DNA of 64,000 bases from an uncultured Mediterraneibacter sp. (GCA_944384505.1 CALWTQ010000008.1:4929-68928); one strand, 5' to 3'. Counted from the stretch's first letter, positions 4,426 through 20,267 are shown. The notes: a model not told the origin generated them from the sequence alone. Made by a program: numbers and translations.

Positions 4426-5091
4426 CTATTCTTCTCTACTAAATACGCGCCCGATCTCCTGTTTAAATTTCCTAATTTCTTTCAGCGGATTCTCACTTTT
4501 CGCAATCGCCGTCCCAATAATAAAGGAATAAATAGGCAGATCTTTAAACTTCTCTATTTTATCCAGCTTCAGCTTTCCGGTCACAGATACCCGGAGCCCT
4601 TTCGAACACAGCAGCTTCACTGTCTCTGTATCCTTGTCATCCCATGCAAACCCCGGATTAACAGAATGGTAGATCACATTTTCAATCCCTGAGCTTTTCC
4701 AGGCGTCAATCAGTTCTTCCGGAAAAGGCTCATGATTCTCCACATGGATATACATATACATTTTCTTATTTCTTTTTGTATAAATCTCATCTACCGCGGC
4801 CGCCACCATATCCATATCTCTGCTGCTGACCGCTATGACAGCATCCGCACCTGCGTCCATCAGCGGCGGGACACTCCCCCTGGCGGTCGGCATCAGCATT
4901 TTTATATCTGCCACGATTTCTTTTTCCGGGAATAGTGTCTTTACATATTTTATGACACGGTTTCCTTCTGAAAAAATAATACTGGAGCCCAGTTCGATCA
5001 CATCTGCTTCCTCGCCCACACCATCTTTCAGGCAGGACAATGTCTCTTCCACAGACAATGTATCCAATGCATAATGTAATTTCGGCAGCAT
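4426..5091 (-). CDS. OMP-decarboxylase/HUMPS superfamily protein (3-hexulose-6-P synthase / 3-keto-L-gulonate-6-P decarboxylase-like), atypical active site
   Basis: LHYALD, DVIELGS, IVADIK, VSVTGKL, FIIGTAI match the HPS/UlaD (beta/alpha)8 layout; second Asp of DxKxxD is missing. Confidence 0.8.
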   Translation of the reverse strand: MLPKLHYALDTLSVEETLSCLKDGVGEEADVIELGSSIIFSEGNRVIKYVKTLFPEKEIVADIKMLMPTARGSVPPLMDAGADAVIAVSSRDMDMVAAAVDEIYTKRNKKMYMYIHVENHEPFPEELIDAWKSSGIENVIYHSVNPGFAWDDKDTETVKLLCSKGLRVSVTGKLKLDKIEKFKDLPIYSFIIGTAIAKSENPLKEIRKFKQEIGRVFSREE

Positions 5092-5103
5092 TATGACATC
5101 CTC

Positions 5104-5586
5104 CTATTTCATTTTTAGCTTATCGAATGTTACCAATTTCTCCTGAGGCATAAATTGCAGATATACTTCGACCTGTAAGTCATTCAGTTCCTTTAGCTTT
5201 TCATACTCATCCGGACTCATAAAACATGTCTTATAAACCGGTTTTCTCCCAGGAGCAGTCGGTATATTTCCGATATTCAGCTTTTTATAGTGAAACCCGG
5301 ATTTCCATGATCGATATGCTGCATCAACATCCCGGAAGAGCACCATGACTTTTCCGTCTCCAAATTGATCTTTATCCCATTCTGCCGCTGCTTTTTCAAC
5401 AGAATATACGATCGCCTTCGTTCCTACCGGAGCCGCAAACTGCAGCCCCATAGCCAGCATCTCATCCGCCGCCACAATATCGTCAATTACGATAATCTTG
5501 CTCGCTCTTACCACATTATTCCAGCTCGTCGTAATCTGTCCATGTATCATCCTGGAATCGATTCTTACAAATCCCACCTCTGCCAA
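5104..5586 (-). CDS. PTS mannose/fructose/sorbose family EIIB
   Basis: FVRIDSRMIHGQI phospho-His motif, LNIGN. Confidence 0.93.
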   Translation of the reverse strand: MAEVGFVRIDSRMIHGQITTSWNNVVRASKIIVIDDIVAADEMLAMGLQFAAPVGTKAIVYSVEKAAAEWDKDQFGDGKVMVLFRDVDAAYRSWKSGFHYKKLNIGNIPTAPGRKPVYKTCFMSPDEYEKLKELNDLQVEVYLQFMPQEKLVTFDKLKMK

Positions 5587-5622
5587 AATAACACCTCCCT
5601 ATTTTCTATATAAGATTCTAGT

Positions 5623-6498
5623 TTAAAACAATCCAATTACCGCCCCTAAGAGCGCGATTACAATCACTCCCAAAATTGCATATAGAATTTTCCCTCCTTT
5701 GCGCAGAAACGCATAGCAGCCGAGCGTCAGCGCCATCGGGAGCATACCGGGCATGATCCCATCCAAAGTCGACTGCAGACTCAGCGCAGCTCCTGTGGAG
5801 AGTTCCCATTCTGGGATTAATGAAATGCTGACATAATTTGTTGTCATAACTCCCATCATAAATGCGCCAAGCACACTTACTCCAAGCATCAGGCTTTTCA
5901 TCTTTCCAGACGTCATTACTTCCATCAGATATTTTTTCCCTTTGCTGTATCCGATGTGACAGGAAAAATACGCAATCCCGCTGAACCATAAGAAAATACA
6001 AACTGCTGCCAGCAGTCCGGCCGCACTCCCCGCAAGCGCGAACGGAATGAACAATGCCCGGAAAACAGAAGACATTGTTGCAGAGTTCAATGCATCTCCA
6101 AATCCTGCCGACGGCCCCATCAAAGCAGATTTCATACCGGTTATCGCCGCATCACTGATATCCGCTCCATTCGCCTTTTCCTCTTCCATCGCGACAGTCA
6201 GCCCGATGATCGCCGCCCCAAATCCCGGGTCAGTCATAAAAGTCTCCAGATGCCTTGTCAGAGCTTTGCTCAGATCATCTTTTCTCGGATACAGTTTTTT
6301 CAAAACCGGAATCAGTGTAACACAGACGCCCAGACCATAATATCTCTCAAAACATTGAGAAATTCTGTGGAATGACAGCCAGTAAGCCCAGGTCTTTGTA
6401 ATATCTTTCTTTGTCAATTCTATATGGGGCTTTGTCTCATTGGAATTCTGTACATTATCATTTCGTTCCATTGCTGTATTCATCGTGTTTTCTGACAT
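5623..6498 (-). CDS. PTS mannose/fructose/sorbose family EIID
   Basis: LYPRKDDLSKALTRHLETFMT, MKSALMGPSAGFGD, LQSTLDGIMPGMLP. Confidence 0.92.
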   Translation of the reverse strand: MSENTMNTAMERNDNVQNSNETKPHIELTKKDITKTWAYWLSFHRISQCFERYYGLGVCVTLIPVLKKLYPRKDDLSKALTRHLETFMTDPGFGAAIIGLTVAMEEEKANGADISDAAITGMKSALMGPSAGFGDALNSATMSSVFRALFIPFALAGSAAGLLAAVCIFLWFSGIAYFSCHIGYSKGKKYLMEVMTSGKMKSLMLGVSVLGAFMMGVMTTNYVSISLIPEWELSTGAALSLQSTLDGIMPGMLPMALTLGCYAFLRKGGKILYAILGVIVIALLGAVIGLF

Positions 6499-6515
6499 TA
6501 CATTTCCCTCCTTTT

Positions 6516-7265
6516 CTATGCTGCCGCAGTTTTATCCTGTGTAAATGTTACATGCAGTATTCCAAGGATTGCCCCGACTACCGCCGTAACTACGATCGGT
6601 ACAGACGCCACCTGTGTGATTACAACTGCCAGTACATAGTATACAAGCAGGAATGGTTTATTCAGCAGGACCAGAATCATTGCAAGCCCTGTTGCCGGCA
6701 GCATGCCACCCGCCACACGGAATCCATTCATCAGCCAGTCAGGAATTGCCTCTACCAGCGCAGTCGCTGTATTGGCGCCAAGGTACACAATCACCGCAAC
6801 GGGGATCCATCGGATAATCACATTAAAGATAAGCGGGCCGCCAATTCCATCAAACATGATCGCTTTAGTATTTGCCTGAAGAGCATGTTTGTCCGCTCTT
6901 CTTGTCCAATACCCCATGACCGTTCTCCGGAAGTTATCCAGGAATACTCCCAGTACTCCGAATGGAACGGACATGACCATTGCCTCTTCTACGCCCATAC
7001 CGGTTGACATTGCGATTGGAATAGCAACACAGCATGCAAGCTGAGAATCTACTGAGAGATTCGCTCCAGGAGCCATAACTCCCGCAATATAAAGAATCTG
7101 GAAATTACCACCCATAATAAGACCCGTTTTAAAATCTCCCATGATCAAACCGATTGCCGCGCCGATCACAATTGCCTCTTTGAAAAAGAATTGAATAAAA
7201 GGACTTTCCACATATGCAAGATAATAAATAAATCCTACTCCAATCGCAATCCATAAATTTTCCAT
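6516..7265 (-). CDS. PTS mannose/fructose/sorbose family EIIC
   Basis: IGLIMGDFKTGLIMGGNFQ, IPDWLMNGFRVAGGMLPATGLAMIL. Confidence 0.92.
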   Translation of the reverse strand: MENLWIAIGVGFIYYLAYVESPFIQFFFKEAIVIGAAIGLIMGDFKTGLIMGGNFQILYIAGVMAPGANLSVDSQLACCVAIPIAMSTGMGVEEAMVMSVPFGVLGVFLDNFRRTVMGYWTRRADKHALQANTKAIMFDGIGGPLIFNVIIRWIPVAVIVYLGANTATALVEAIPDWLMNGFRVAGGMLPATGLAMILVLLNKPFLLVYYVLAVVITQVASVPIVVTAVVGAILGILHVTFTQDKTAAA

Positions 7266-7296
7266 ATACTTTCTCCTTCCTACTCATCGTCGGAAC

Positions 7297-8337
7297 TTAG
7301 TATTTCACTTCATTTGTCAATTTTTCACCTTTCAGATACTTTTCCAGATCTGCCGATAATATTTCCATGGATAATTCTTCCAATTCGCAGCATACTCCCG
7401 CAAGATGAGGAATCAGGGTAACATTTTCTAATTTGCGCAGCGGATGGTCTGCCGGAAGCGGCTCTTCTACATATACATCAAGCGCTGCGCCCATTATTTT
7501 ATTTTCCTGCAGCGCTTTTACCAGGGCATTTTCATCCACAAGCCCTGCTCTTGCGGTATTAATGAGATATGCTTCTGGTTTCATCATTGCGAGTTCTCTT
7601 TCGCCTATCATTTTTTCTGTCTCCGATGTAAGTCTAAAATGTACGGATATAATATCAGCTGTTTTCATCAGCTCTTCTAACGTTACTTTTTCAAATCCAT
7701 CGCCCCGGATCTGTTCTTCACTGCAATACGGATCATAGACAATAATCCTGGATCCAAACGGAACTAACCTGGCAGCCACTTTCTTTCCCACCTGGCCATA
7801 TCCTACGATCCCCACAGTCATACTTTTCATCGTATGTATCCTGCCATCGTTCGGATATGGTACCTCCCATTTTCCGGCGCGCATTCCCCTGTCTCCACGA
7901 GTAATATTCCGTGTTTCTGCCAGCATCAGACCCACTGTAAAATCCGCAACCGGAACAGAAACACGCCCTGGGGACAGCACCACCCGTACACCTTTTTCTT
8001 TTGCCTTTTCTGCGTTGATATTTTCCATGCCGCTTCGCAGGAGCCCTACCATTTCCAGATGCTCACCGGCATCCAGATAGGCGCTGCAGACAGGATTTAA
8101 ATGAGCGACAAGCACATCAGCATCTTTTACTTTTTCCAGGACCTCTTCATTGACAGGCAATGCGTCAGGCCCTTCTTCCTCCATCCTGCGGAAAGAAGTC
8201 TGCAGTTCCCCCCGGTTATGGTTCTGCTTATCTTCCACAATTTCCAGCTTCGCCCCATACTTCTCCAGGTAAGAAAATCCTTTTAGCATATTTTCCTTAT
8301 CTATTCCCACGTCACTGATACATAGAATTTTTTTCAT
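7297..8337 (-). CDS. D-isomer-specific 2-hydroxyacid dehydrogenase (SerA-like, no ACT domain)
   Basis: GIVGYGQVG Rossmann motif; INTARAGLVDE, LDVYVEEPL, IPHLAG give the Arg/Glu/His catalytic set. Confidence 0.9.
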   Translation of the reverse strand: MKKILCISDVGIDKENMLKGFSYLEKYGAKLEIVEDKQNHNRGELQTSFRRMEEEGPDALPVNEEVLEKVKDADVLVAHLNPVCSAYLDAGEHLEMVGLLRSGMENINAEKAKEKGVRVVLSPGRVSVPVADFTVGLMLAETRNITRGDRGMRAGKWEVPYPNDGRIHTMKSMTVGIVGYGQVGKKVAARLVPFGSRIIVYDPYCSEEQIRGDGFEKVTLEELMKTADIISVHFRLTSETEKMIGERELAMMKPEAYLINTARAGLVDENALVKALQENKIMGAALDVYVEEPLPADHPLRKLENVTLIPHLAGVCCELEELSMEILSADLEKYLKGEKLTNEVKY

Positions 8338-8365
8338 TTTATATAATGTCTCCTTCCTTTTTCTT

Positions 8366-9235
8366 CTAGTACCGGTTTGTCTGTCCGAACAATTTCATAA
8401 AATGAATCATTTTCTCCTTGTACCCCTTTAACCCCTGTTCTTCCATGAGAAAAATCTTCGGACTGTCATCTTCCTTTAAATAATTCTGGGAATAATTCAG
8501 AGCTTCTTCCGCCAGTTCTGAAAAAATATTGATCTTAGCAATTCCGCCTTCTACAAATCTTTTCAGATTCTCATCCCCACTGTAAGAAGCGCCGTGGAGC
8601 ACAAGCGGTTTATCTACCGCAGCTTTAATCGCAGCCAATCTGTCAAAATCCATCTTTGGCTCCTTTTTATATACCCCATGCGTAGTGCCAACCGCTACTG
8701 CTACACAGTCTACGCCAGTCTGCTTTAAATACTCTGCCGCATCTTCCGGAGTGGTCAGCTCTTCCGAATCCTCTTCATAACTGAAATTGATATTTCCATT
8801 TTCATCAGGGGCGCAGAACCCCAGGCCTCCCACATGTCCAATTTCGCCTTCTACGCTCACGCCTGCAGCATGTGCCATTTTAACAACCTCTTTTGTCTGA
8901 CGCACATTTTCTTCAAACGGAAGCGAAGACTTATCAATCATCACAGACGTGTAGCCATAATGGATCATTCTTGCAGCCATATCAAAGTCAAAACCATGAT
9001 CCAGATTCAGCGCAACAGGGACTTCCGGATATTTCCTCTCCCAATATTTCGCCGCTCCGGCGATCCATTCCATGTCTTTTACGAAGCCGGATACATTGAT
9101 GATCATCGGGGCCCTAAGTTCGCTTGCCGCCTCATAACATTTCTGCACACTTTCTCCATTCCATACATTTACTGCCGCTACTGCATAATGATTTTCTACC
9201 GCATGCTCCAAAATTTTGGTCATGTTCACTAACAT
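8366..9235 (-). CDS. Class II fructose/tagatose-bisphosphate aldolase family protein
   Basis: LNLDHG, VEGEIGHVGG, VGTTHGVYK, LVLHGAS zinc-binding motifs. Confidence 0.9.
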   Translation of the reverse strand: MLVNMTKILEHAVENHYAVAAVNVWNGESVQKCYEAASELRAPMIINVSGFVKDMEWIAGAAKYWERKYPEVPVALNLDHGFDFDMAARMIHYGYTSVMIDKSSLPFEENVRQTKEVVKMAHAAGVSVEGEIGHVGGLGFCAPDENGNINFSYEEDSEELTTPEDAAEYLKQTGVDCVAVAVGTTHGVYKKEPKMDFDRLAAIKAAVDKPLVLHGASYSGDENLKRFVEGGIAKINIFSELAEEALNYSQNYLKEDDSPKIFLMEEQGLKGYKEKMIHFMKLFGQTNRY

Positions 9236-9334
9236 AATGCCAATCCTCCTTTTTATTAATACACTGAAGCGTTCTCTCCATCCCTGCCCTTTTGTAATTC
9301 CACCTCCTGTCCGGCTTTTTTTCTGACAGAGTTC

Positions 9335-9742
9335 CTATTGATTCATTTGCTGATTAAATGTCTCCGTCACATTCATCATCTGACGCTTTCCTTCCTCAAT
9401 CGCATATTCAACTCTGTCTGAAATTTTCTCTGAAGTTTCATCCAAAGCATACTGAATCAAAAGAGCCAGATTCAAACCTGAAACGATCGTATAGTTCTTA
9501 TATTTTTTTGAATTGCGAAGCGCTACATTGCATGGTGTCCCCGATATGATATCTACCATCACAACAATATTTTCTCCATCCTGCGCTGCAGAGGCAATTG
9601 TATTAAACTGTTCTTCCACAGCCTCAGGACTCATCTCCGGCTGCACACAAATCGTATAGGTATTCTTTATTTCCCCTATGATCATCTGTGCGCTGTGCAG
9701 AATTCCTTCAGCAAAGTTTCCATGCGTCATTAAAATTAGCAT
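9335..9742 (-). CDS. PTS mannose-family EIIA
   Basis: LMTHGNFAEG phospho-His, MVDIISGTPCN, VSGLNLALL. Confidence 0.9.
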   Translation of the reverse strand: MLILMTHGNFAEGILHSAQMIIGEIKNTYTICVQPEMSPEAVEEQFNTIASAAQDGENIVVMVDIISGTPCNVALRNSKKYKNYTIVSGLNLALLIQYALDETSEKISDRVEYAIEEGKRQMMNVTETFNQQMNQ

Positions 9743-10389
9743 TTGGCACCTCCTTTATTTTCATCTATTCCTGTTTTTGCATACAGCCATTTCCTTTTCT
9801 GCATATCTTGTTCTATATACTGCACAATTTTTTCTTTGTACTGCATCGTTCTCTCAACATCATTCATCCCTTCCAGAAGAGCTTGCTTTCTTGCCTTATC
9901 TATCTCAAATTGATAAGTCTCCCCGGAAGGGGTTTTTACGGTTTCCTTTGGCAAGTCTACTTCGAATATGCCTCCTGTTTCCGCCTCTTCTGCTATCTTT
10001 ACCACAATGCTTTCTGGCAGTTTAACCGGAAGTATCCCCTGCTGATAACAGTTTTTTGTGAAAATACCGCCAAAAGAACTTCCAATCAGACATCGGATCC
10101 CGCACTTTCTAATCGCCTCAGGCGCAGTCTCTCTGGAACTCCCACAGCCGAAATTCTCTCCTGTAATCATAATCTTTGCATCTTTATTACGTTCCATATT
10201 CAGGGGAAAGTCCATGTTTAATGCACCTTTATCTCCATCACCGTTTACAAACCGATACGGTTCAAAAGAGTAATAAGCTATATTATCCATATCCAGTAAA
10301 AGCCGCTTCATCGGTGTAATGCAGTCTGTATCAACATTCGCCATCAGCCACGGAACCGCCTGGCTTTTAAGTACTTCAAACCTTTCCAT
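9736..10389 (-). CDS. 3-isopropylmalate dehydratase-like small subunit (LeuD type, divergent)
   Basis: [48 protein letters not shown]. Confidence 0.88.
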   Translation of the reverse strand: MERFEVLKSQAVPWLMANVDTDCITPMKRLLLDMDNIAYYSFEPYRFVNGDGDKGALNMDFPLNMERNKDAKIMITGENFGCGSSRETAPEAIRKCGIRCLIGSSFGGIFTKNCYQQGILPVKLPESIVVKIAEEAETGGIFEVDLPKETVKTPSGETYQFEIDKARKQALLEGMNDVERTMQYKEKIVQYIEQDMQKRKWLYAKTGIDENKGGAKC

Positions 10390-10400
10390 GATTCCTCCTT

Positions 10401-11795
10401 CTATACAATCCTGCCATTTAAAGCCGCAAGAGCTGCTGTATAGGGAGCCGCCAAATGGGTTCTCGCGCCTCTTCCCTGCCTGCCGATAAAGTTTCTATTC
10501 GTAGTTGACACACAGCGTTTTCCAGGAGGGATCATTTCTCCATTGCTTCCCACACACAGGCTGCAGCTTGGCTCTCCCCACGAGAATCCTGCTTTTGTAA
10601 AAATCTCTGCGATCCCCATCTGTTCCGCAGTTTTCTTCACCTGCGCAGATCCGGGCACAATCCACGCTGTCACGCCTTCCGCCACTTTTTTCCCTCTGAC
10701 TAATTCTGCGATTTGTTTTAGGTATGTAATCCTTCCATTGGAACATGAACCGATAAATACATAGTCCACACTAATCTCGCTCATAGCTTGTCCTGCCCGG
10801 AGATCCATATACGCATACGCTTTTTCGTAAGACTGTTTTTCTGCTATTGACGATCCTTTCACAATCTCAGGCACCCGCCCGTCTACGGCAACCGTCTGAG
10901 ATGGGTCGACTCCCCAGCTTATCTGCCGGCTTATCCCTGAAATATCAAATGTGATTTCCCTGTCAAATATACTTTCCGATGTCGTCGCAATCTGCCCGCA
11001 GTATTCTTTCATGGCATCCCAGTTATCACCTGATGGCGCGTATTCTCTCGTTCGCAGATATTCCAGTGTAGTTTTGTCCGGAGAGACCATTCCATATTCT
11101 GCGCCCAATTCAATTGTCAGATTGCACAATGTACATCTCTCATCAATATTCATGTGACGTACAACTTCTCCTGTATACTCCACGGCATACCCCACACCAA
11201 AATCAATTCCGACCTGTGAGATGATAAACAGTATGATGTCCATCGCGCTGATATCTTCCTTCCGCCGTCCTTTAATTTCAATTTTCAAAGTCTTTGGCTT
11301 TTTTGCGATGACGCATGTGGTTGCCAGTGCATGATACACCTCGCTTGTTCCCACCCCCATCGCAAGCGCGCCGACTGCGCCATGAGTACAAGTATGGCTG
11401 TCGCCGCATACGATTGTCATACCCGGCAGGGATAACCCGGTTTCAGGCCCTATAATATGAACGATTCCCTGATGACTGTCTCCGGTATCAAAAAGAGTAA
11501 TCCCGTATCTTTTGCACCCTTCCCGGAACTTCGGCATAATCAGTCTGCTGATCTCACAGGCGTCTTTTCTTTGGTCTTTGCGGGATGGCAGCGTATGATC
11601 CGGAGTTGCATATACATTTTCTCTGCGAAATATATCTTTTTTATTTTCCTTCATCATCTGAAAAGCAAACGTCCCGCACAGGTCATGGAGGTATATTCTA
11701 TCCACTGCCAGTAAATAACTCTCTTCATCCAGCTGTTCTATAACATGAGAATCCCACAGTTTTTCAAACAGAGTGTTCATCTTCTTTTTCAGCAC
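10401..11795 (-). CDS. 3-isopropylmalate dehydratase-like large subunit (LeuC type, divergent)
   Basis: [32 protein letters not shown], [4Fe-4S] ligands GSCSNGR and CSLCVG, STTNRNFIGRQG; start may be the ATG at 11780. Confidence 0.9.
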   Translation of the reverse strand: MLKKKMNTLFEKLWDSHVIEQLDEESYLLAVDRIYLHDLCGTFAFQMMKENKKDIFRRENVYATPDHTLPSRKDQRKDACEISRLIMPKFREGCKRYGITLFDTGDSHQGIVHIIGPETGLSLPGMTIVCGDSHTCTHGAVGALAMGVGTSEVYHALATTCVIAKKPKTLKIEIKGRRKEDISAMDIILFIISQVGIDFGVGYAVEYTGEVVRHMNIDERCTLCNLTIELGAEYGMVSPDKTTLEYLRTREYAPSGDNWDAMKEYCGQIATTSESIFDREITFDISGISRQISWGVDPSQTVAVDGRVPEIVKGSSIAEKQSYEKAYAYMDLRAGQAMSEISVDYVFIGSCSNGRITYLKQIAELVRGKKVAEGVTAWIVPGSAQVKKTAEQMGIAEIFTKAGFSWGEPSCSLCVGSNGEMIPPGKRCVSTTNRNFIGRQGRGARTHLAAPYTAALAALNGRIV

Positions 11796-12300
11796 CTTCC
11801 TCCAGTTTTATCTTTAAATATGCCATCAGGCCGCCTGCGCTCAGCTGCGCTCTTAAATCTTCCGGTATCGGCGTTCCTTCCATTATGGTTCCTTTCGTCA
11901 GGTTCCGGATCCTCCCTGTCTCCAGATCTACTTCCAGTTCATCTTTCACATCTGTGTTCTCCGATATTTTTTTACAAATCACACACGGGAGTCCGATATT
12001 CAATGCATTTCTGTAAAAAATTCTGGCAAATTCTTCTGCAATCACCATTTTTGTACCAGCAGCTTTTAATGCAATCGGCGCTGTCTCCCGGCTCGATCCG
12101 CATCCAAAATTCTTCCCGGCAATCAGAATTCCCCCCTGTGCCATTTTTGAGGGAAAATCCGGTTCTAAATCACACAGGCAGATGGAACCTAAATATTCTG
12201 GATCATAAGAAGTCAAATATTTTCCCGGCGTCATTACATCTGTGTCAATATGATCCCCCAGCTTCTCCAAAACTTTATATCTTACCTTTGTCTGCAACAT
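11764..12300 (-). CDS. Aconitase-family small subunit (HacB/DmdB/short LeuD type)
   Basis: [48 protein letters not shown]. Confidence 0.9.
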
Positions 12301-12312
12301 ACACCATCCCCC

Positions 12313-13563
12313 TTATATACACCGCGGATCCGTAATCCTGCCTGTCAGGGCGCTTGCAGCAGCCGTCTCTGGCGACCCCAGATAAACCATCGAATCCGGA
12401 CTGCCCATCCTGCCTTTAAAGTTCCGGTTATGTGTCCCCAGGCATCGTTCCCCCGCAATCATGGGCATCTGTATTCCGCAGCCTCCGCAGCCGGGATTTA
12501 CAATAATGCATCCCGCCTCAGCCAATGTCTGCAAATACCCCTTTTCCGAGGCTTTTGCATAAACTTTATTTGAGGCCGGTACGATAAAACATTTAAACGC
12601 ATGCGGTATTTTACGCCCGCCTATGATTTCCGCTGCGGCTTGAATATCTTCCAGCCTTCCATTGGTACAGGCCCCTATAATAATCTGATCCAGTTTCGTA
12701 CCTTCCACCTCTGTAACGTCAACACTGTTCGCCGGACTGTATGGAACCGCGACCTGTGGAGCCAGTTCCGCCGCGTTTATCTCAATACAGCTTTCATACT
12801 CTGCATCTGTATCACTGTACAGTTCTGAAAAGTCCGCTTCTTTTATTCCACAGGATTTCAGATATTCTTCTGTCTTTTCATCTGGTCGGATGATACCATT
12901 TTTAGCTCCTGCCTCAATCGCCATGTTACAGATCGTAAATCTTGAGTCCATAGACATATTTTCAATGGTATCCCCTGTAAATTCCAGCGCCTTATATGTT
13001 GCCCCATTAGCGCCTATCTGAGACAGTAGTTTCAGTATCACATCCTTCGACATAACATGTTCCGGAAGAACGCCGGTCACATGTATTTTCATTGTTTCCG
13101 GCACCTTAAACCACAGTCTGCCCTGAACCAGGACAGCGCACATCTCAGTGGATCCTATTCCAGTCGAAAACGCGCCCAGCGCCCCATAAGTACATGTATG
13201 AGAATCCGTTCCCACAGCCACCTGCCCCGGGAGGATCTTCCCCTCCTCAACAATAATCTGATGGGAAACTCCCTGCATATTATATAAATTAGGGATCTGA
13301 TAATCTTCAGCAAATTTTACGGTTTCATGGACTGTTCCCGCGTTTTCCATACTGCCCGGCAGGCACGAGTGATCAATCACCGGAAAGACTTTCTCCCTGT
13401 CCCAGAGCAGCACCCCCAGCTCTCTGAATTGTTTGTATACAATCGGGCCAAGCGCATCCTGAATCATGGCCAGATCAACTTCTGCGGTTACTATATCGCC
13501 AGCTTTTACATTTCTTTTCCCAGAAGCCCTTGCCAGAATTTTTTCCGTTATTGTCATACTCAT
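12313..13563 (-). CDS. Aconitase-family large subunit (HacA/DmdA/short LeuC type)
   Basis: MTITEKILA, GTDSHTCTYGA, IGACTNGR, NPGCGGC, HNRNFKGRMGS, SPETAAASA. Confidence 0.9.
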   Translation of the reverse strand: MSMTITEKILARASGKRNVKAGDIVTAEVDLAMIQDALGPIVYKQFRELGVLLWDREKVFPVIDHSCLPGSMENAGTVHETVKFAEDYQIPNLYNMQGVSHQIIVEEGKILPGQVAVGTDSHTCTYGALGAFSTGIGSTEMCAVLVQGRLWFKVPETMKIHVTGVLPEHVMSKDVILKLLSQIGANGATYKALEFTGDTIENMSMDSRFTICNMAIEAGAKNGIIRPDEKTEEYLKSCGIKEADFSELYSDTDAEYESCIEINAAELAPQVAVPYSPANSVDVTEVEGTKLDQIIIGACTNGRLEDIQAAAEIIGGRKIPHAFKCFIVPASNKVYAKASEKGYLQTLAEAGCIIVNPGCGGCGIQMPMIAGERCLGTHNRNFKGRMGSPDSMVYLGSPETAAASALTGRITDPRCI

Positions 13564-13632: not shown

Positions 13633-14511
13633 TTAGTCTTCATTTAACACATCAAATACACGGGCATGTTTGTGTGTGCGGAATACATTCTTCAACTTTC
13701 CTGTAGAATAGAATACAGCGAGTCTGAGATCCTCGTCATAATTATTAAATGTTTTGGACGGCTGTTCCGGCGCATTATATCTCATAATTCCAGGACGTAA
13801 AGCAAGCCCCAGGTTCGGCATAATTACAGTTCCTCTTCCAGTGATCGCGAATTCCAACTCGTCTACTCCCGGATGGGAAACAAAATCTTCTTCCGGAGAA
13901 GACACTCCCGGTTTCTGGATCGGATGAAGGAAACAGATGTTATTTCCCTCGAAGATGATGGATGTCAGATGCCCCTCATCTGGTTTATTTCCAGTAAAGC
14001 CCGGCGCTGTTCTCTGTATTCCGTCATTGATATTCTTTACAATACAGCCGTTCTCACTGTCATATGTATCCCCCTCTTTATAAGCATTCCGTTTTACATC
14101 TTTCAGCGGTTTTGAATAAACCACAACATATTTCAGTACTTCTTTAGAATTATTTATGATTCCGTGAGGGTGCCCTTCTTTCAGATAAAAACTGATATCC
14201 GGCTTTAACTCGTATGTCTTTCCTTCCGGCAGCAAAAGTGTTCCTTCCCCCTGCAGAATCAATGTGATTTCCTCACAGTCCGGGTGCATAGTAAGTCCCT
14301 CTGCCGGCGCAGCCACTCCGGGTTCGATAGACACATACTGCATACTGATCTTCTCCAGATCGTATAGATTCTTGCAAACACATCCCGCAATTCCCTCCCG
14401 AATAAAGGACTGCGTACCCGGGATCACCTTTTTCAGGTGATAATCGTATCCCGTCTCCATGTCCAAAAATCCATAATGATTCTTTCCGTCTTTGAGTTCA
14501 AATTGTTTCAT
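13633..14511 (-). CDS. Bicupin (two cupin barrels) protein
   Basis: Cupin motif 1 MHPDCEEITLILQGEG..HPHG; second repeat SHPGVDELEFAITGRG. Confidence 0.75.
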   Translation of the reverse strand: MKQFELKDGKNHYGFLDMETGYDYHLKKVIPGTQSFIREGIAGCVCKNLYDLEKISMQYVSIEPGVAAPAEGLTMHPDCEEITLILQGEGTLLLPEGKTYELKPDISFYLKEGHPHGIINNSKEVLKYVVVYSKPLKDVKRNAYKEGDTYDSENGCIVKNINDGIQRTAPGFTGNKPDEGHLTSIIFEGNNICFLHPIQKPGVSSPEEDFVSHPGVDELEFAITGRGTVIMPNLGLALRPGIMRYNAPEQPSKTFNNYDEDLRLAVFYSTGKLKNVFRTHKHARVFDVLNED

Positions 14512-14559: not shown

Positions 14560-15963
14560 TTATTCAAGAATATATTTTTCAACCTCTTCCGCGAGAATAT
14601 GAATATCTTTTATTTTTTCCAGGTCAGATAACATTTTCAAAATTGGGTCAATTCCCTCTTCACGGACCGCTCTCTTCATACAGTCTCTCCACTTCTCTCC
14701 CATCTCTTCTCTCGTCATCGGATTATTGGGCCCGCCTTTTGCGAAGTCACAACGTTCTTTTAATACAATGCCATTCTTCAGCGTAACTTCCACCTGAGTA
14801 CTCTCCAGTGCATCGAAATAGGCTCCCGGTATCAGCGTATCATCCAGTATCATGTCTATCCGTTTCATCATCTCGATCAATGTTTTATCCCGCACGGTAT
14901 CTCCTTCAAAATCCTGCATCGTGAGTTTTCTCTGAAGTACTATTAACGCAATACAGTAATTCATACTGAATTTTCCTTCTGTCGGTGTCTTAGCGATGCT
15001 ATATCTGAGAATGTCTCCCGCATAGGGAAGGACTTTACAGTCAATATGCCGGATTTCTTCCGGTTTGATATCGTATTTATTCAGCAGGCTCAGCATTGCC
15101 CAGATGCCATTATGCGTTGCTTTGCAGGCCGGCCAAGGCTTCATGATCAGTCCTTTGTCAAGGAACTCTGAGTTCTGAATCTTCATAGCTTCTTCCAATT
15201 TATCTTCGTGACAAACTCCTGTCGTCACTTTTGTAAATCCGGCATCCATTTCCATAATAGTACGATTTGAGGTAAAACCTTTTTGGGCAAGCTTTGCCGC
15301 CATAATTCCTTTTGATGCAGCGCGGCCCGCATGAAGCGGCTTTGTCATACTTCCTGTATTTCCTTTCAGGCCGCAGGACTCACTTGCCGCAATTCCAATG
15401 GCGTTTACCAGCTCTTCTTCCGTAAGCTTAAGCAGCTCTGCCGCTGCTGCCGCCGCCCCGAATACGCCAATTGTTTCTGTACTGTGCCACCCTCTTCTGC
15501 AGTGTTCAGGAATATAAGCCCTCCCCATAAGCGCACAGGTTTCAATCCCCGTAATGTACGCTCGCAGCACTGCGCTGCCATCTGCACTGGTCTCCTCTCC
15601 GGCTGCCAGGACTGCCGGAAGAACCGCAACGCTTGGATGTCCGATCATCGTTGTGCAGACATCATCATAATCATGAAAATGTGCAGCCACTCCATTTACC
15701 ATAGCACTATGGCAGGCATCTGATCTTATATGTGAGCCATAGATATAGGCAGCGGCTTTACCGCCTTCAGAACATACATATTCCTTAACAATCTGTGTGG
15801 CAGTTTCATTTGCGCCCGCCAGCATACAGGCAAATGTGTCCGAAAAAAATTCAAGCGCTTTTTCCTTAACTCCCTCTTTCAGCTGCCTGGCGCGCATTTC
15901 AATCAGATAATGCGCAATTTTTTCACTCATTGATTTCATTTTTTCATCTTTCCTTCTCATCAT
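14560..15963 (-). CDS. MmgE/PrpD family protein
   Basis: NGVAAHFHDYDD, GHPSVAVLPA, GWHST, TKPLHAGRAA, KPWPAC, EGKFSMNY, AKGGPNNPM. Confidence 0.92.
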   Translation of the reverse strand: MMRRKDEKMKSMSEKIAHYLIEMRARQLKEGVKEKALEFFSDTFACMLAGANETATQIVKEYVCSEGGKAAAYIYGSHIRSDACHSAMVNGVAAHFHDYDDVCTTMIGHPSVAVLPAVLAAGEETSADGSAVLRAYITGIETCALMGRAYIPEHCRRGWHSTETIGVFGAAAAAAELLKLTEEELVNAIGIAASESCGLKGNTGSMTKPLHAGRAASKGIMAAKLAQKGFTSNRTIMEMDAGFTKVTTGVCHEDKLEEAMKIQNSEFLDKGLIMKPWPACKATHNGIWAMLSLLNKYDIKPEEIRHIDCKVLPYAGDILRYSIAKTPTEGKFSMNYCIALIVLQRKLTMQDFEGDTVRDKTLIEMMKRIDMILDDTLIPGAYFDALESTQVEVTLKNGIVLKERCDFAKGGPNNPMTREEMGEKWRDCMKRAVREEGIDPILKMLSDLEKIKDIHILAEEVEKYILE

Positions 15964-16216: not shown

Positions 16217-17242
16217 ATGGTTACCATTAAAGATGTTGCGGCAAGAGCAAATGTCTCCGTTACTACCGTGTCAATCGTACTGAACGGCAAAGCTGCAGAA
16301 AGAAAAATTTCAGACGCTACTGTCACCCGGATCATGAATGCTGTTGCACAATTGAACTATCAGCCAAACATTGCCGCCAGGAAACTGCGTGCCTTTGATA
16401 AAAACAGAGCCAATATTGGCATTTATCTGGCATATGACCATCGTTCCAGCATGCTCAGTCAGTTTGTGGAGGCCATATATAAGGAGCAGGCGAATAGTAT
16501 CCATGATTTTTACATTACTATCTGTCCCTTTAAAAGCGGAGCTTTAAGCGAAGAAGAGACTTTGCTCTCTACTGCTTCCTTTAACGCGGCTATTATCGCC
16601 ACCACAGCGCCTTCTGATATGGAATATCTGCGTGAGAACCGGCCTCCTTTTCCGGTTGTCCTAATGAACCGCTCCATAGAAGGTTTATCTTCTGTCTGCG
16701 CAGATATTAATGACTCAATTGAAGAACTCGCAGAGCAGGCTGCGCATAAAGGGCATCAGCGGATAGCTGCCATTTTAATGAAAGATGCTTATATGGCTAA
16801 CAAGTTCCGTTCCCAGAATTTCCTTGCTGCATGCCGCAGGCATAATATTAACTGCTCAGACGAACACCTCATTCTTACAACAGATTCCCTGTCCGGAGGA
16901 GCAGAAGCCGCGCGGAAACTCCTGGACAGTCCTAATATGCCCGGATTTCTATATTGTGATACAGATTCTATTGCACTGGGAGCTGTCAGTGTATTGAACC
17001 GGAAAGGAATTCGTATTCCAGAAGATCTGGAAGTTGTGTGTATCTGCCTGTCCAGCCCAGACTATACAGCGTACAGCACGCCTTCCATAACGACTATCGA
17101 TGTATCTCTTGAGAAGAATATGGTTGATTGTCTGAAGCTGGCACTAGACTTATTGTTTAACAAGACAATGGAATCAATTCAAAAAGTTTATAGTGCTCCA
17201 ATTCTATATCGGGAATCTTTTCCCCGGCTCGAAGACGTTTAG
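16217..17242 (+). CDS. LacI-family transcriptional regulator
   Basis: MVTIKDVAARANVSVTTVSIVLN HTH; YQPNIAARKL hinge; PSITTI. Confidence 0.93.
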   Translation: MVTIKDVAARANVSVTTVSIVLNGKAAERKISDATVTRIMNAVAQLNYQPNIAARKLRAFDKNRANIGIYLAYDHRSSMLSQFVEAIYKEQANSIHDFYITICPFKSGALSEEETLLSTASFNAAIIATTAPSDMEYLRENRPPFPVVLMNRSIEGLSSVCADINDSIEELAEQAAHKGHQRIAAILMKDAYMANKFRSQNFLAACRRHNINCSDEHLILTTDSLSGGAEAARKLLDSPNMPGFLYCDTDSIALGAVSVLNRKGIRIPEDLEVVCICLSSPDYTAYSTPSITTIDVSLEKNMVDCLKLALDLLFNKTMESIQKVYSAPILYRESFPRLEDV

Positions 17243-17339: not shown

Positions 17340-18803
17340 TTAATTATTCTGTGAACTCTTCCCCGGGAACGGATTGTCGGCAAATCTTCCTATCGCTTCT
17401 TCTGCCACAATCTTAAAGTTCTCCGCAACAAGGTTTCCTCTCACAAAAGTTGCCACTGGCGCGCCTTTTAGCTGCATTCCATCATACAGGCTGTACTTAT
17501 GAGAACTTTCGCTGTATTCCTTATGGAATATCCATTCTTTGTTCAGATCCAGTATGACAATATCTGCATCTGAACCAACGTTTAAAGCTCCCTTCTGTGG
17601 ATAAAGCCCCATCGCTTTCGCAGTATTTTCACACATGATCTTCCTCAGGGTGTCGAGAGAAATCCGATTCTTATTTACTCCTTCACTGATCATGATGCTT
17701 AAAGACGCACTCATTCCTTCTCCTGTTCCCGGCGGAGTATCCCAGTAATTCCTGCCCAATTTTTCTTCCGGCCGGAAATTGGTATGGTCATTCCCAATCG
17801 TCTGAATTACCCCTTCCTGAATCCCCTTCCATAAGCGCTCTCTGTCTGCGCTTTCCCTGATCGCCGGGTTTACCTTTGCATAGTGTGTCCATTCCTTGTT
17901 ATTTCTGCATATCTCATCGTCTGCCGCAAATACCAGATAATGAGGGCAGGTTTCGGCCGTTATATCATATCCCAGTCCTTTGAAGTACTTAATCTGCTCC
18001 ACAGCCTCTTTAGAACTAACATGCACAATATAAAGCGGACAATGTGTCTCATGCGCGATATATGCAGCCTTACATACGTCAATCGCCTCCGCAATAGCCG
18101 GCCTGGCCCGGTTCTGCCTCTCCGTATAGTTATAGTCTGCGGGCGGCGCTTCCTTCTTAACTCTTTCTTCCAGTAATTCAAAAATCTGCGGATCCTCACA
18201 ATGCACCATGGCTGTCGCAGGCAGCCCTGTTTTTCCTATTATTTCAAATCCTTTGTATAAAAAAGTAGAATCAATTCCCCTTTCGTCCATTCCAAGGGCT
18301 TTCGCGCCCTCTCCCCTGTATCCCATAAGGAATTTATAGTTGCTCACCCCTTTTTCTACAAGTTTAGGAATTTCCTGAAGATGCTCTTCTGTGAACGGTG
18401 AAATGTGGAATCTCACATCACAAAAAGCACTGCCTTCCAACCCATCCTTAAATTCTCTGAACCGTTTTGTCATAGCATCAGCATTCTGCATCGTTGTACT
18501 GCTGATCGTTGTATAGCCGCCCTGGACTGCTGTTCTGGTTTCAGATCGCACCTCTTCTTTATAAGTCTCCAGATTAAATTTCTTATCTTTATTTACGACC
18601 CACAGTTCAAAATGGCAGTGCGGTTCTATAGCCCCCGGAAAAATGATATTTTTTTTCGCATCATAATAGTTTTCCGCTTCCGGAAGAGACGCATCGGCTC
18701 CCACTTGTATTATAACTCCGTCCTTTACGGCCACGCCGCCTGTCACCACTCCCTGCTCTGTACAAACATACCCATTTCCAATTACTAAATCTGCTTTTGT
18801 CAT
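17340..18803 (-). CDS. Cyclic amidohydrolase (dihydropyrimidinase/allantoinase/dihydroorotase superfamily)
   Basis: EPHCHF (HxH), NYKFLMGY (carbamylated Lys), MVHCED, IVHVSS, AKVNPAIR, IGNDH, KGALNVGSDADIVI. Confidence 0.9.
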   Translation of the reverse strand: MTKADLVIGNGYVCTEQGVVTGGVAVKDGVIIQVGADASLPEAENYYDAKKNIIFPGAIEPHCHFELWVVNKDKKFNLETYKEEVRSETRTAVQGGYTTISSTTMQNADAMTKRFREFKDGLEGSAFCDVRFHISPFTEEHLQEIPKLVEKGVSNYKFLMGYRGEGAKALGMDERGIDSTFLYKGFEIIGKTGLPATAMVHCEDPQIFELLEERVKKEAPPADYNYTERQNRARPAIAEAIDVCKAAYIAHETHCPLYIVHVSSKEAVEQIKYFKGLGYDITAETCPHYLVFAADDEICRNNKEWTHYAKVNPAIRESADRERLWKGIQEGVIQTIGNDHTNFRPEEKLGRNYWDTPPGTGEGMSASLSIMISEGVNKNRISLDTLRKIMCENTAKAMGLYPQKGALNVGSDADIVILDLNKEWIFHKEYSESSHKYSLYDGMQLKGAPVATFVRGNLVAENFKIVAEEAIGRFADNPFPGKSSQNN

Positions 18804-18812
18804 ATATTATTT

Positions 18813-20090: not shown

Positions 20091-20117
20091 CTTTTCACCT
20101 CTCCAAGAATAAGTTTA

Positions 20118-20239
20118 ACGTTATAGTTTTTCGTTAAATTAATTCTAATTTAGTACTATCCTATTGTCAACATATTTCTTTAATTATTGACAAAAAATTG
20201 GAATTATAAGATAATTAATATAACGTTTTACTATAACGT
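20118..20239. promoter_or_regulatory. Putative operators in second divergent promoter region
   Basis: ACGTTTTACTATAACGT at 20223-20239 (16/17 identical to 15981 copy); ACGAAAAACTATAACGT at 20118-20134 (-). Confidence 0.6.
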
Positions 20240-20267
20240 AAATATTATTCATGGAGGTGTCAGCTTT

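What the first reader, a model, noticed from the sequence alone, without database searches (positions are those of the whole stretch)
9736..13563. Two different classes of aconitase-family heterodimer in tandem, both with remodelled substrate motifs
Seen: a short HacA/DmdA-type pair (416+178 aa) directly followed by a long LeuC/LeuD-type pair (464+217 aa), so not a recent duplication. Fe-S cysteines are retained (CTNGR/CGGC; CSNGR/CSLC). Substrate-side motifs differ from LeuCD: RIYLHDLCG vs RHLVHEVTS, DTDCITP vs DTDQIIP, SSRETAP in both small subunits vs SSREHAP, CGGCGIQ vs CGPCLG. Inference: two sequential or stereo-complementary hydro-lyase steps on non-isopropylmalate substrates.
Basis: partly seen in the sequence, partly recalled or inferred. 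Interest (0 to 1): 0.65.

Follow-up and report, generated by a model that had tools for sequence, protein, structure and literature searches.

The report
Twin non-leucine aconitase-type hydro-lyases
Two different iron-sulfur "LeuCD-like" enzyme pairs sit side by side in a sugar-uptake operon of a chicken-gut bacterium; together with an orphan bicupin protein they form a rare, conserved, undescribed module that most likely breaks down a citrate/malate-like acid, not one that makes leucine.

Summary
Four minus-strand genes encode a short-type aconitase-family pair (416+178 aa) and then a long-type pair (464+217 aa). The large subunits are 35% identical. All Fe-S cysteines and catalytic motifs are intact. 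The altered substrate-side motifs are real and conserved across each clade.

Neither pair is the leucine enzyme. The genome has a bona fide LeuCD and LeuB elsewhere. Three of the four subunits score below the NCBIfam LeuC/LeuD/HacAB equivalog cut-offs. Each large subunit falls in its own monophyletic clade outside canonical LeuC.

The two pairs always occur together, next to an orphan bicupin, in 11 independent loci. The four subunits co-evolve (r = 0.82-0.92).

The module comes in two settings:
- With only a DASS/CitMHS anion transporter and a LacI regulator.
- As here, inside larger operons with a mannose-type PTS (or ABC transporter plus kinase), a class II aldolase, a 2-hydroxyacid dehydrogenase and C-N hydrolases, usually with a LarA racemase as well.

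Best reading: the two pairs carry out sequential hydro-lyase steps, with the bicupin between or after them, on a hydroxy-polycarboxylate. This resembles AcnD-PrpF-AcnB.

The substrate is not identified and I found no published description. The module is rare: 1 of 401 genomes sampled from the family and 1 of 401 from the class.

The parts
12313..13563 (-). L1: short-type (archaeal LeuC/HacA-length) aconitase-family large subunit, 416 aa
   Evidence: PF00330. Only subfamily-level NCBIfam hits pass (NF001614 545.7 > 385); LEU2 equivalog 459.9 < 610.65 and HacA_Meth 434.8 < 550. Clade motifs IQDALGP, GACTNGR, PGCGGCGIQMP, GTHNRNF. 43% identical to the genome's own LeuC.
11764..12300 (-). S1: small subunit of the short pair, 178 aa
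   Evidence: PF00694. TIGR02084 leuD equivalog 167.4 < 245.85; HacB models 152-155 < 230. [10 protein letters not shown]; recognition loop TPGKYLTSY. Its 3' end overlaps the start of L2 by 32 nt (GTG) or 17 nt (ATG).
10401..11795 (-). L2: long-type LeuC-like large subunit, 464 aa (459 aa if ATG at 11780)
   Evidence: PF00330 full length. NF009116 subfamily 593 > 531, but TIGR00170 leuC 527.4 < 560.25. Motifs DRIYLHDLCG, GSCSNGR, PSCSLCVGSNGE, STTNRNF. His37 aligns to aconitase Gln72, Asp66-His67 to Asp100-His101.
9736..10389 (-). S2: long-type LeuD-like small subunit, 217 aa
   Evidence: PF00694. TIGR00171 142.7 > 116.25. [10 protein letters not shown] and DTDCITPMKRL vs DTDQIIPKQFL in solved LeuDs. 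Overlaps the PTS EIIA start by 7 nt.
13633..14511 (-). Orphan bicupin, 292 aa; constant partner of the two pairs
   Evidence: Cupin_2; no NCBIfam family. AF2 model pLDDT 83, generic bicupin fold. Only 5 relatives at E<=1e-30 among 1.84 billion cluster representatives. Present in all 11 loci.
14560..15963 (-). MmgE/PrpD-family protein, 467 aa, first gene of the operon
   Evidence: PF03972 and PF19305. Closest solved relatives are IDS epimerase 2hp0 (231.7 bits) and B. subtilis IRG1 (189 bits), not PrpD 1szq (29.8 bits). Present in 7 of the 11 loci.
4426..9742 (-). Downstream genes of the same operon: PTS EIIA-Man (9335-9742), class II ketose-bisphosphate aldolase (8366-9235), D-2-hydroxyacid dehydrogenase (7297-8337), PTS IIC (6516-7265), IID (5623-6498), IIB (5104-5586), KGPDC/HPS-like OMPdecase-family protein (4426-5091)
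   Evidence: Pfam and NCBIfam. Gaps between genes are 11-99 nt or overlaps. The same order is conserved in L007, L089, L100 and L111.
16217..17242 (+). Divergent LacI-family regulator
   Evidence: PF00356 and PF13377. A LacI gene flanks the module in 10 of the 11 loci, transporter-only loci L092 and L102 included; none was seen at L103 or in the part of L097 that was annotated. A sigma70-like site lies at 16035-16007(-) upstream of the operon.
17340..21668 (.). Linked genes: cyclic amidohydrolase (17340-18803, -), LarA-family racemase (18813-20090, -), amidase-signature amidase (20187-21668, +)
   Evidence: Dihydropyrimidinase/allantoinase-like 270.7 bits; LarA best match malate racemase LarAH6 394.9 < 500; AtzE/GatA-like amidase. 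In L089 they are fused into the same gene string; conserved in L007, L100 and L111.

Best explanation
The four genes encode two distinct, catalytically intact [4Fe-4S] aconitase-family hydro-lyases. Neither is the leucine-pathway isopropylmalate isomerase. Together with the adjacent bicupin they form one conserved catabolic module that processes a hydroxy- or unsaturated di/tricarboxylate resembling malate, citrate or aconitate.

The most likely mechanism is sequential. One pair dehydrates the acid to an enoate. The bicupin, and where present the MmgE/PrpD-family protein, isomerises, tautomerises or decarboxylates that intermediate. The other pair adds water at a new position. This is the logic of AcnD-PrpF-AcnB in the methylcitrate cycle, and of aconitase plus Lys4 in fungal lysine synthesis.

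In some organisms the acid is imported directly by a DASS/CitMHS anion transporter. In this genome I infer that it is released from, or derived from, a PTS-imported sugar-type compound that carries amide or ureide bonds. Hence the cyclic amidohydrolase, amidase, aldolase, 2-hydroxyacid dehydrogenase and LarA-type 2-hydroxyacid racemase in the same regulon.

Shown: family membership, intact catalytic residues, non-LeuCD status, obligate co-occurrence and co-evolution, and catabolic operon context.
Inferred: anionic polycarboxylate substrate, order of steps, role of the bicupin, and the link to the sugar/amide part. The substrate itself is unknown.
For: (1) Intact enzymes. Three Cys ligands, DSHT, NRNFxGR and GSSRE are all present. 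The alignment to aconitase 1aco places Asp-His, Asp-Ser-His and Asn-Arg correctly.

(2) Not LeuCD. The genome has its own LeuCD and LeuB elsewhere. Three of the four subunits miss the equivalog cut-offs. Both large subunits sit in separate clades.

(3) Conserved triad of bicupin + pair 1 + pair 2 in 11 loci:
- Mannose-PTS type: window, L007 (Mediterraneibacter sp. NSJ-55), L089, L100/L101, L111, L093.
- ABC type: L008, L103.
- Transporter-only type: L092, L102, L097.
. Ten further pairs of hits share a contig length.

(4) Co-evolution. Identity matrices of L1, S1, L2 and S2 correlate at r = 0.82-0.92.

(5) The minimal loci L102 and L092 hold only LacI, a DASS/CitMHS anion transporter, the bicupin (L092 also MmgE/PrpD) and the two pairs. 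The module's own substrate is therefore an imported anion.

(6) The sister clade of L2 (57% identity) sits with a PrpB-like lyase (224 bits, below the 354.4 cut-off) and an MmgE/PrpD protein. That is a methylcitrate-cycle-like arrangement and points to tricarboxylate-type substrates.

(7) L1 has the aconitase-type Gln ('QDA') at the Gln72 position. S2 has Arg where LeuDs have Phe in the recognition loop. The small-subunit loop and GSSRE are the known specificity determinants (PMC7308503).

(8) LarA's best match is malate racemase.

(9) Overlapping reading frames S1/L2 and S2/EIIA tie the pairs to each other and to the PTS genes.

(10) Precedent for two aconitase-family enzymes with an isomerase between them: AcnD-PrpF-Acn (PMC5690661).
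Against: - No substrate is identified, and there are no expression data (no RNA runs).
- The minimal loci encode no lyase or dehydrogenase, so the end product is unknown.
- The bicupin has no informative relatives and its metal-binding motifs look incomplete in the alignment (my reading), so its role as isomerase is a guess.
- The bicupin is only about 45% identical between transporter-type and sugar-type loci, while L1 stays about 69%. The two settings may therefore not handle the same molecule.
- The MmgE/PrpD protein is absent from 4 of the 11 loci and resembles IDS epimerase/IRG1 rather than PrpD. This weakens the direct PrpD-plus-aconitase analogy.
- How a PTS-phosphorylated sugar connects chemically to a polycarboxylate is unexplained.
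- S2 passes the TIGR00171 cut-off, and L2 misses TIGR00170 by only 33 bits.
Confidence: 0.6

Rival explanations
1. Parallel, stereo- or regio-complementary hydratases. Each pair handles a different isomer of the same acid class (for example different diastereomers of a dihydroxy- or hydroxy-polycarboxylate such as tartrate or hydroxycitrate isomers, or cis/trans enoates). LarA and the MmgE/PrpD protein widen the set of usable isomers.
For: - A LarA racemase/epimerase is present in the PTS-type loci, and its best match is malate racemase. Malate racemases also epimerise tartrate (PMC11770544).
- The MmgE/PrpD partner is optional.
- The two pairs come from very different branches of the family.
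Against: - No locus with only one pair was seen among the 11.
- The four subunits co-evolve tightly.
- Even the minimal five-gene loci keep both pairs.
Confidence: 0.22
2. New substrate class. One or both pairs dehydrate PTS-phosphorylated sugar acids, or branched sugar acids with a malate-like head. They would feed the class II aldolase, 2-hydroxyacid dehydrogenase and KGPDC-like decarboxylase directly.
For: - S2 overlaps EIIA by 7 nt, and the pairs are embedded in a PTS/aldolase operon conserved in five lineages.
- In L008 an ABC transporter plus FGGY kinase replaces the PTS, while the dehydrogenase and aldolase are kept.
- Nearly all loci use LacI-type regulators, which are typical of sugar and sugar-acid sensing.
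Against: - Transporter-only loci (L092, L102, L097) contain no kinase, PTS or aldolase at all.
- Arginines and GSSRE typical of dicarboxylate binding are retained.
- No LeuCD-type enzyme is known to use a sugar phosphate.
Confidence: 0.12
3. Spare or condition-specific isopropylmalate/citramalate isomerases (ordinary LeuCD isozymes).
For: - Public records name the homologues '3-isopropylmalate dehydratase'.
- S2 passes TIGR00171 and L2 passes the NF009116 subfamily cut-off.
Against: - A bona fide LeuCD and LeuB exist elsewhere in the genome.
- No leuA, leuB or ilv genes lie nearby.
- The module sits in a LacI/PTS catabolic operon.
- Recognition motifs are altered across each clade.
- The module is absent from 400 other sampled genomes of the family, the one same-genus genome among them.
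Confidence: 0.04

Closest known systems
LeuCD, 3-isopropylmalate dehydratase/isomerase (bacterial long type; archaeal/clostridial short type)
   Same: Heterodimer of Aconitase and Aconitase_C domains. Three Cys ligands, DSHT, NRNFxGR and GSSRE motifs. Both size classes are represented.
   Different: - Equivalog scores are not reached for L1, S1 and L2.
- Large-subunit HEVTS -> HDLCG, or His -> Gln.
- Small-subunit REHA -> RETA, and the recognition loop is altered.
- Catabolic operon, extra copies, rare distribution.
AcnD + PrpF + AcnB (methylcitrate cycle II), and PrpD + aconitase
   Same: Two separate hydro-lyase steps on a tricarboxylate with an isomerase between them (PMC5690661). The sister clade of L2 sits with a PrpB-like lyase and an MmgE/PrpD protein.
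   Different: - The middle protein here is a bicupin, unrelated to PrpF.
- The enzymes are two-subunit LeuCD-type, not monomeric AcnD/AcnB.
- The MmgE/PrpD protein is IDS-epimerase/IRG1-like, not PrpD.
- This is analogy only.
Methanogen homoaconitase HacAB, and half-reaction homoaconitases (fungal Lys4, Thermus). The Lys4/Thermus point is from my own knowledge.
   Same: The short pair has HacA/HacB length and 358 bits to solved HacA 4kp2. Family members specialised for one half-reaction are a precedent for splitting an isomerisation between two enzymes.
   Different: HacA_Meth 434.8 < 550; HacB models about 152-155 < 230. The recognition loop is YLTS, not the Arg-containing HacB loop (the HacB loop is from memory). 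Catabolic context.
Catabolic aconitase-family hydratases: dimethylmaleate hydratase DmdAB (Eubacterium barkeri nicotinate fermentation) and maleate hydratase HbzIJ. Both are cited from my own knowledge.
   Same: LeuCD-like heterodimers used to hydrate substituted maleates in degradation pathways. DmdAB works downstream of an amidohydrolase and upstream of an ICL-family lyase in a Clostridium-type anaerobe. Imidase, half-amidase, maleate hydratase and D-malate chemistry would fit the amidohydrolase, amidase and LarA found here.
   Different: No molybdenum hydroxylase, B12 mutase or lyase lies in this operon. Here there are two pairs plus a bicupin and PTS genes.

Membership tests
Aconitase superfamily, two-subunit (LeuCD/HacAB-type) hydro-lyases | Aconitase (PF00330) large subunit plus Aconitase_C (PF00694) small subunit encoded as adjacent genes | tested here: met
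   PF00330 at 333 and 470 bits; PF00694 at 64 and 78 bits. Gene order is L-S-L-S.
Aconitase superfamily, two-subunit (LeuCD/HacAB-type) hydro-lyases | Three cysteine ligands of the [4Fe-4S] cluster and the catalytic/substrate motifs (Asp-His, DSHT, NRNFxGR, GSSRE) | tested here: met
   alignment to aconitase 1aco.
LeuCD (3-isopropylmalate dehydratase, leucine biosynthesis) | Score above NCBIfam equivalog cut-offs (TIGR02083/TIGR02084 for the short type; TIGR00170/TIGR00171 for the long type) | tested here: not met
   L1 459.9 < 610.65; S1 167.4 < 245.85; L2 527.4 < 560.25. Only S2 passes (142.7 > 116.25). The genome's own LeuCD passes both.
LeuCD (3-isopropylmalate dehydratase, leucine biosynthesis) | Canonical substrate-side motifs (large HEVTS or HD.TGP; small DTDQIIP.QF / SSREHA) | tested here: not met
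LeuCD (3-isopropylmalate dehydratase, leucine biosynthesis) | Biosynthetic role: the genome's only copy, or linked to leu/ilv genes | tested here: not met
   A separate LeuCD is on C11 and LeuB on C17. The neighbours here are PTS, aldolase and LacI.
LeuCD (3-isopropylmalate dehydratase, leucine biosynthesis) | Isomerisation of 2-/3-isopropylmalate; complementation of a leuCD mutant | not testable with these tools
   Needs enzyme assay and genetics.
Methanogen-type homoaconitase HacAB | Score above NF040615 / NF040604 / NF040625 cut-offs | tested here: not met
   434.8 < 550; 151.9 and 154.6 < 230.
Dimethylmaleate hydratase DmdAB / maleate hydratase HbzIJ | Close sequence relationship to the characterised enzymes; hydration of (di)alkyl-maleates | not tested
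   No specific model or reference sequence was available. TIGR02087 'LeuD/DmdB family' is only a broad subfamily model (176.5 > 108.95). Literature searches gave no sequence data.
PrpD (2-methylcitrate dehydratase), for the neighbouring MmgE/PrpD gene | Score above prpD equivalog cut-offs; closest to solved PrpD | tested here: not met
   TIGR02330 32.9 < 458. Closest solved structures are IDS epimerase (231.7 bits) and IRG1, against PrpD at 29.8 bits.

The most novel reading that the evidence does not exclude
The operon encodes a wholly undescribed catabolic route in which a PTS-imported, amide- or ureide-bearing sugar derivative is converted into a branched hydroxy-polycarboxylate. In the strongest form of this reading, at least one aconitase-family pair acts directly on a phosphorylated or branched sugar acid. 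That would be a new substrate class for LeuCD-type enzymes, and the orphan bicupin would be a new enoate isomerase or decarboxylase.
Probability: 0.15. Interest if true: 0.85.

Novelty: new variant of a known kind. Interest (0 to 1): 0.6.

Why it matters
Public records name these proteins '3-isopropylmalate dehydratase', and that name is very probably wrong for them.

The work defines two uncharacterised specificity clades of the aconitase family and an orphan bicupin family. The three always travel together, which gives a clean, testable unit of five genes plus one anion transporter for finding a new acid-degrading pathway in gut anaerobes.

The link to a mannose-type PTS, a LarA racemase and C-N hydrolases suggests a nutrient class, a sugar-acid-amide conjugate, for which no catabolic route is described.

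A cultured carrier exists (Mediterraneibacter sp. NSJ-55), so the question can be tested directly.

Tried and rejected
- The search for related loci in species-representative genomes with P0003 alone found nothing. Only L009 was close, and it belongs to the sister clade.
- A metagenome scan with the bicupin alignment gave only 5 loci, one of them informative (L097).
- The bicupin structure prediction and PDB fold search gave only generic bicupins: oxalate decarboxylase, quercetinase, ureidoglycine aminohydrolase, MncA. No function can be read from this.
- treekit/IQ-TREE runs got no answer from the script machine. The trees are FastTree with SH-like supports.
- Literature searches found no description of this module. 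Terms tried: maleate hydratase, dimethylmaleate hydratase, PrpD+LeuCD, LarA gene context, hydroxycitrate, trans-aconitate.
- No RNA-seq run holds the stretch.
- Substrates considered but not supportable with these data: citrate or trans-aconitate, hydroxycitrate isomers, tartrate isomers, substituted maleimides (including haem/bilin-derived hematinic acid imide), citrazinate-type pyridones, aceric acid, fructosamine-type conjugates, nucleoside-like ureides. None explains the polycarboxylate module and the PTS/aldolase part together.
- The simple 'PrpD + aconitase' reading was weakened once the MmgE/PrpD protein proved to be IDS-epimerase/IRG1-like.

Full report
**1. Observation**

The four ORFs exist exactly as described, all on the minus strand:
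- L1: 12313-13563, 416 aa.
- S1: 11764-12300, 178 aa.
- L2: 10401-11795, 464 aa. It starts at a GTG preceded by GGAGGA. An ATG 15 nt further in matches the conserved N-terminus 'M..TLF.KLW'.
- S2: 9736-10389, 217 aa.

Pfam assigns Aconitase to both large proteins and Aconitase_C to both small ones. The two pairs are old paralogues: L1/L2 are 34.6% identical and S1/S2 37.8%. They represent the two size classes of the family. L1 aligns end to end with M. jannaschii LeuC 4nqy (388 bits). L2 aligns to it only in two pieces.

The three cluster cysteines are present in both large subunits, as are Asp-His, DSHT and NRNFxGR, and GSSRE in both small subunits. The alignment of L2 with pig aconitase 1aco places these residues on Asp100/His101, Asp165-Ser166-His167 and Asn446/Arg447/Arg452, and puts His37 on Gln72.

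**2. The 'remodelled motifs' are real and define clades**

*Long large subunit.* 'DRI[YF]LHDLCG' occurs in every member of the window's clade. The next clade has 'DRC.LHDLSG'. Bacillus LeuC has 'DLHLIHEVTS' with 'CSMCL.MNPD', against 'CSLCVGSNGE' here.

*Short large subunit.* 'IQDALGP', 'GACTNGR', 'PGCGGCGIQMP' and 'GTHNRNF' mark the clade. The genome's own LeuC has 'GSCTNGR', 'PSCGPCMGGHM' and 'STTNRNF'. The 'DSHTCTYGALGA' block is shared with canonical short LeuC, so it is not diagnostic. The Gln in 'IQDA' sits where LeuC and HacA have His and aconitase has Gln72.

*Small subunits.* Both clades and the sister clade have 'GSSRETAP'. The genome's own LeuD and the solved LeuDs 2hcu, 3q3w and 3h5h have 'SSREHA'. 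In S2 the loop after 'DTD' reads 'DTD[CTVI]I[TS]PM[KR]R[LVIM]', against 'DTDQI[IL]P[KA][QV]FL' in solved LeuDs. The window's Cys is therefore not conserved, but three changes are: loss of Gln, Ile->Thr/Ser, and Phe->Arg. This loop and GSSRE are the two small-subunit regions known to bind and select the substrate (PMC7308503).

**3. Not the leucine enzyme**

The assembly (95% complete) contains, on contig C11, a LeuC/LeuD pair that passes the clostridial/archaeal-type equivalog models (704.6 > 610.65 and 248.8 > 245.85). A LeuB lies on C17 (502.4 > 353.2). Exactly three small-subunit genes exist in the genome.

Scores for the window's proteins:

| Protein | Model | Score | Cut-off | Result |
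|---|---|---|---|---|
| L1 | LEU2 (TIGR02083) | 459.9 | 610.65 | fails |
| L1 | HacA_Meth (NF040615) | 434.8 | 550 | fails |
| S1 | leuD (TIGR02084) | 167.4 | 245.85 | fails |
| L2 | leuC (TIGR00170) | 527.4 | 560.25 | fails |
| S2 | leuD (TIGR00171) | 142.7 | 116.25 | passes |

In a FastTree of 85 long-type sequences, the 23 'HDLCG' sequences form one clade (support 0.967). That clade is sister to the Firmicute 'HDLSG' clade, inside a large non-canonical 'HDL.G' assemblage that is separate from 'HEVTS' LeuC.

In the short-type tree the 15 'CGGCGIQMP' sequences are monophyletic. They lie inside a bacterial 'GTH-NRNF' group (support 0.988) that excludes the genome's own LeuC, M. jannaschii LeuC and the archaeal sequences that NCBI names homoaconitase.

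**4. What the pairs travel with**

The window's genes form a 13-gene co-directional string, 15963 -> 4426. Gaps are 11-99 nt. S1/L2 overlap by 32 or 17 nt, and S2 overlaps the PTS EIIA gene by 7 nt.

Gene order: MmgE/PrpD-family, bicupin, L1, S1, L2, S2, EIIA-Man, class II ketose-bisphosphate aldolase, D-2-hydroxyacid dehydrogenase, IIC, IID, IIB, KGPDC/HPS-like decarboxylase. LacI genes lie at both ends. Just upstream are a dihydropyrimidinase/allantoinase-like amidohydrolase, a LarA homologue (best match malate racemase, 394.9 < 500) and an amidase-signature amidase.

Related loci fall into three kinds:

| Kind | Loci | Content |
|---|---|---|
| Full PTS type | Mediterraneibacter sp. NSJ-55 (L007), L089, L100/L101, L111 | Same 16 genes as here. 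In L089, LarA and the amidohydrolase are in the same string. |
| Other sugar/amide types | L093 | PTS, NagA-like deacylase, 2-hydroxyacid dehydrogenase, HPr, bicupin, two PF04199 cyclase/formamidase-like genes, ferredoxin, amidase, Zn-ADH, both pairs, LarA |
| | L008 | Bicupin, both pairs, ribose-type ABC transporter, Zn-ADH, RbsD, CN-hydrolase, FGGY kinase, 2-hydroxyacid dehydrogenase, aldolase |
| | L103 | Two nitrilase-like CN-hydrolases, bicupin, both pairs, sugar-binding protein |
| Transporter-only type | L102 | LacI, DASS/CitMHS transporter, bicupin, both pairs, and nothing else |
| | L092 | As L102, plus MmgE/PrpD |
| | L097 | Bicupin, CitMHS, MmgE/PrpD, CitMHS, then L1 at the end of the fetched stretch |

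The invariant core is the bicupin plus both pairs. No locus with a single pair was seen. Ten more pairs of database hits share a contig length, which points to further co-occurrences. Pairwise identities of the four subunits across nine loci correlate at r = 0.82-0.92. The pairs are therefore inherited as one unit.

**5. Rarity and habitat**

The bicupin has no NCBIfam family. Only 5 relatives reach E <= 1e-30 among 1.84 billion cluster representatives. The bicupin profile found only the window's own genome among 401 genomes sampled from its family (400 genera) and among 401 sampled from its class. The one same-genus genome lacks it.

The stretch is found in chicken-gut metagenomes and in dust metagenomes. 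No RNA run holds it.

**6. Mechanistic reading**

The transporter-only loci show that the triad's own substrate is an anion taken up by a DASS/CitMHS carrier, that is, a di- or tricarboxylate.

Four further points favour a malate/citrate/aconitate-like acid:
- The sister clade of L2 is linked to a PrpB-like lyase (224 bits, below the 354.4 cut-off) and an MmgE/PrpD protein.
- L1 carries the aconitase-type Gln.
- S2 carries an Arg in the recognition loop.
- The LarA homologue is malate-racemase-like.

Constant co-occurrence and overlapping reading frames favour two consecutive steps: dehydration by one pair and hydration at another position by the other. The bicupin would handle the enoate or enol intermediate. 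Precedents are AcnD-PrpF-Acn (PMC5690661) and, from my own knowledge, aconitase plus Lys4.

The neighbouring 'PrpD' gene is not PrpD. Its closest solved relatives are iminodisuccinate epimerase (231.7 bits) and IRG1/cis-aconitate-decarboxylase-like proteins, against 29.8 bits for PrpD. It is also optional. I treat it as an accessory epimerase, decarboxylase or dehydratase.

In the sugar-type loci C-N hydrolases recur in varied forms: cyclic amidohydrolase plus amidase, nitrilase-superfamily enzymes, or a NagA-like deacylase. Sugar uptake and phosphorylation, the 2-hydroxyacid dehydrogenase and (in most of them) the aldolase stay constant. I infer that the acid is released from, or made from, an amide/ureide-bearing sugar derivative. 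This step is inference only.

One caveat: the bicupin is 78-83% identical among six of the sugar-type loci but about 45% to the transporter-type ones (L103 is intermediate at 59%), while L1 stays about 69%. The two settings may process related rather than identical molecules.

**7. Comparison with the known, and novelty**

These proteins are members of the two-subunit aconitase family. They fail the membership tests for LeuCD (three of four equivalog models, motifs, context) and for HacAB.

Relatedness to DmdAB and HbzIJ, the known catabolic members, could not be tested for lack of reference sequences. Functionally they are the nearest analogues.

No paper in the searchable library describes the triad or the operon.

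I classify the finding as a new variant of a known kind: known fold and chemistry, two new specificity clades, a new constant partner and a new pathway context. Interest is moderate to high. It is held down by the unidentified substrate and raised by the clean, rare, conserved and experimentally tractable module.

Noticed in passing
window 14560-15963 (-): The gene that Pfam labels MmgE/PrpD is far closer to iminodisuccinate epimerase (2hp0, 231.7 bits) and B. subtilis IRG1 / cis-aconitate decarboxylases than to PrpD (1szq, 29.8 bits). Its function is probably not 2-methylcitrate dehydration.
   Followed up: partly
window 13633-14511 (-): The bicupin belongs to a tiny orphan family: 5 relatives at E<=1e-30 in 1.84 billion representatives, and no NCBIfam model. 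Both cupin domains appear to keep only one His plus one Glu of the usual metal-binding motif. Identity is 78-83% among six sugar-type loci (59% in L103) but about 45% in transporter-type loci.
   Followed up: partly
window 9736-9742: The stop region of the LeuD-like small subunit overlaps the start of PTS EIIA-Man by 7 nt. An Fe-S hydro-lyase gene is thus tied to a PTS component by overlapping reading frames.
   Followed up: no
window 18813-20090 (-): The LarA homologue scores best against the malate racemase model LarAH6 (394.9 bits, below the 500 cut-off). I did not check whether the genome encodes the LarB/C/E cofactor-synthesis genes.
   Followed up: no
G000 C4:67266-69566 (L003) and C121:167-2467 (L004): The genome has two 766-aa YbhJ-type (PRK11413) aconitase-family 'hydratases' with near-identical scores (309 bits each). 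The Pfam Aconitase scan found no AcnA- or AcnB-type aconitase. One copy is next to a LysR regulator.
   Followed up: partly
L102 1-5100: In this metagenome contig the minimal transporter-type module lies next to an ascorbate-type (Ula-like) PTS operon: EIIC-GAT, IIB, OMPdecase, epimerase, Aldolase_II. The window's operon also ends with a KGPDC-like decarboxylase. This may be coincidence or a hint of ascorbate-related chemistry.
   Followed up: no
L103 1-2638 and 17114-19960; L092 245-4892: Fe-S serine-dehydratase-like genes lie near the module in L103 and L092. L103 also has a 3-hydroxyisobutyrate-dehydrogenase-like gene, an RraA-like aldolase/decarboxylase and a molybdenum hydroxylase. From my own knowledge this recalls the Hmd/Hgd/Ndh enzymes of clostridial nicotinate fermentation, in which DmdAB acts.
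   Followed up: no
G000 C2:53065-60199 and C49:863-3866: Four PEP-mutase/isocitrate-lyase-family genes lie elsewhere in the genome. They could supply the missing C-C lyase step after the hydro-lyases. Their neighbourhoods were not examined.
   Followed up: no
window 9736-13563: The stretch is held almost completely by several chicken-gut metagenome runs and partly by dust metagenomes. The host is therefore a poultry-gut anaerobe. The closest cultured carrier of the whole cluster is Mediterraneibacter sp. NSJ-55.
   Followed up: partly
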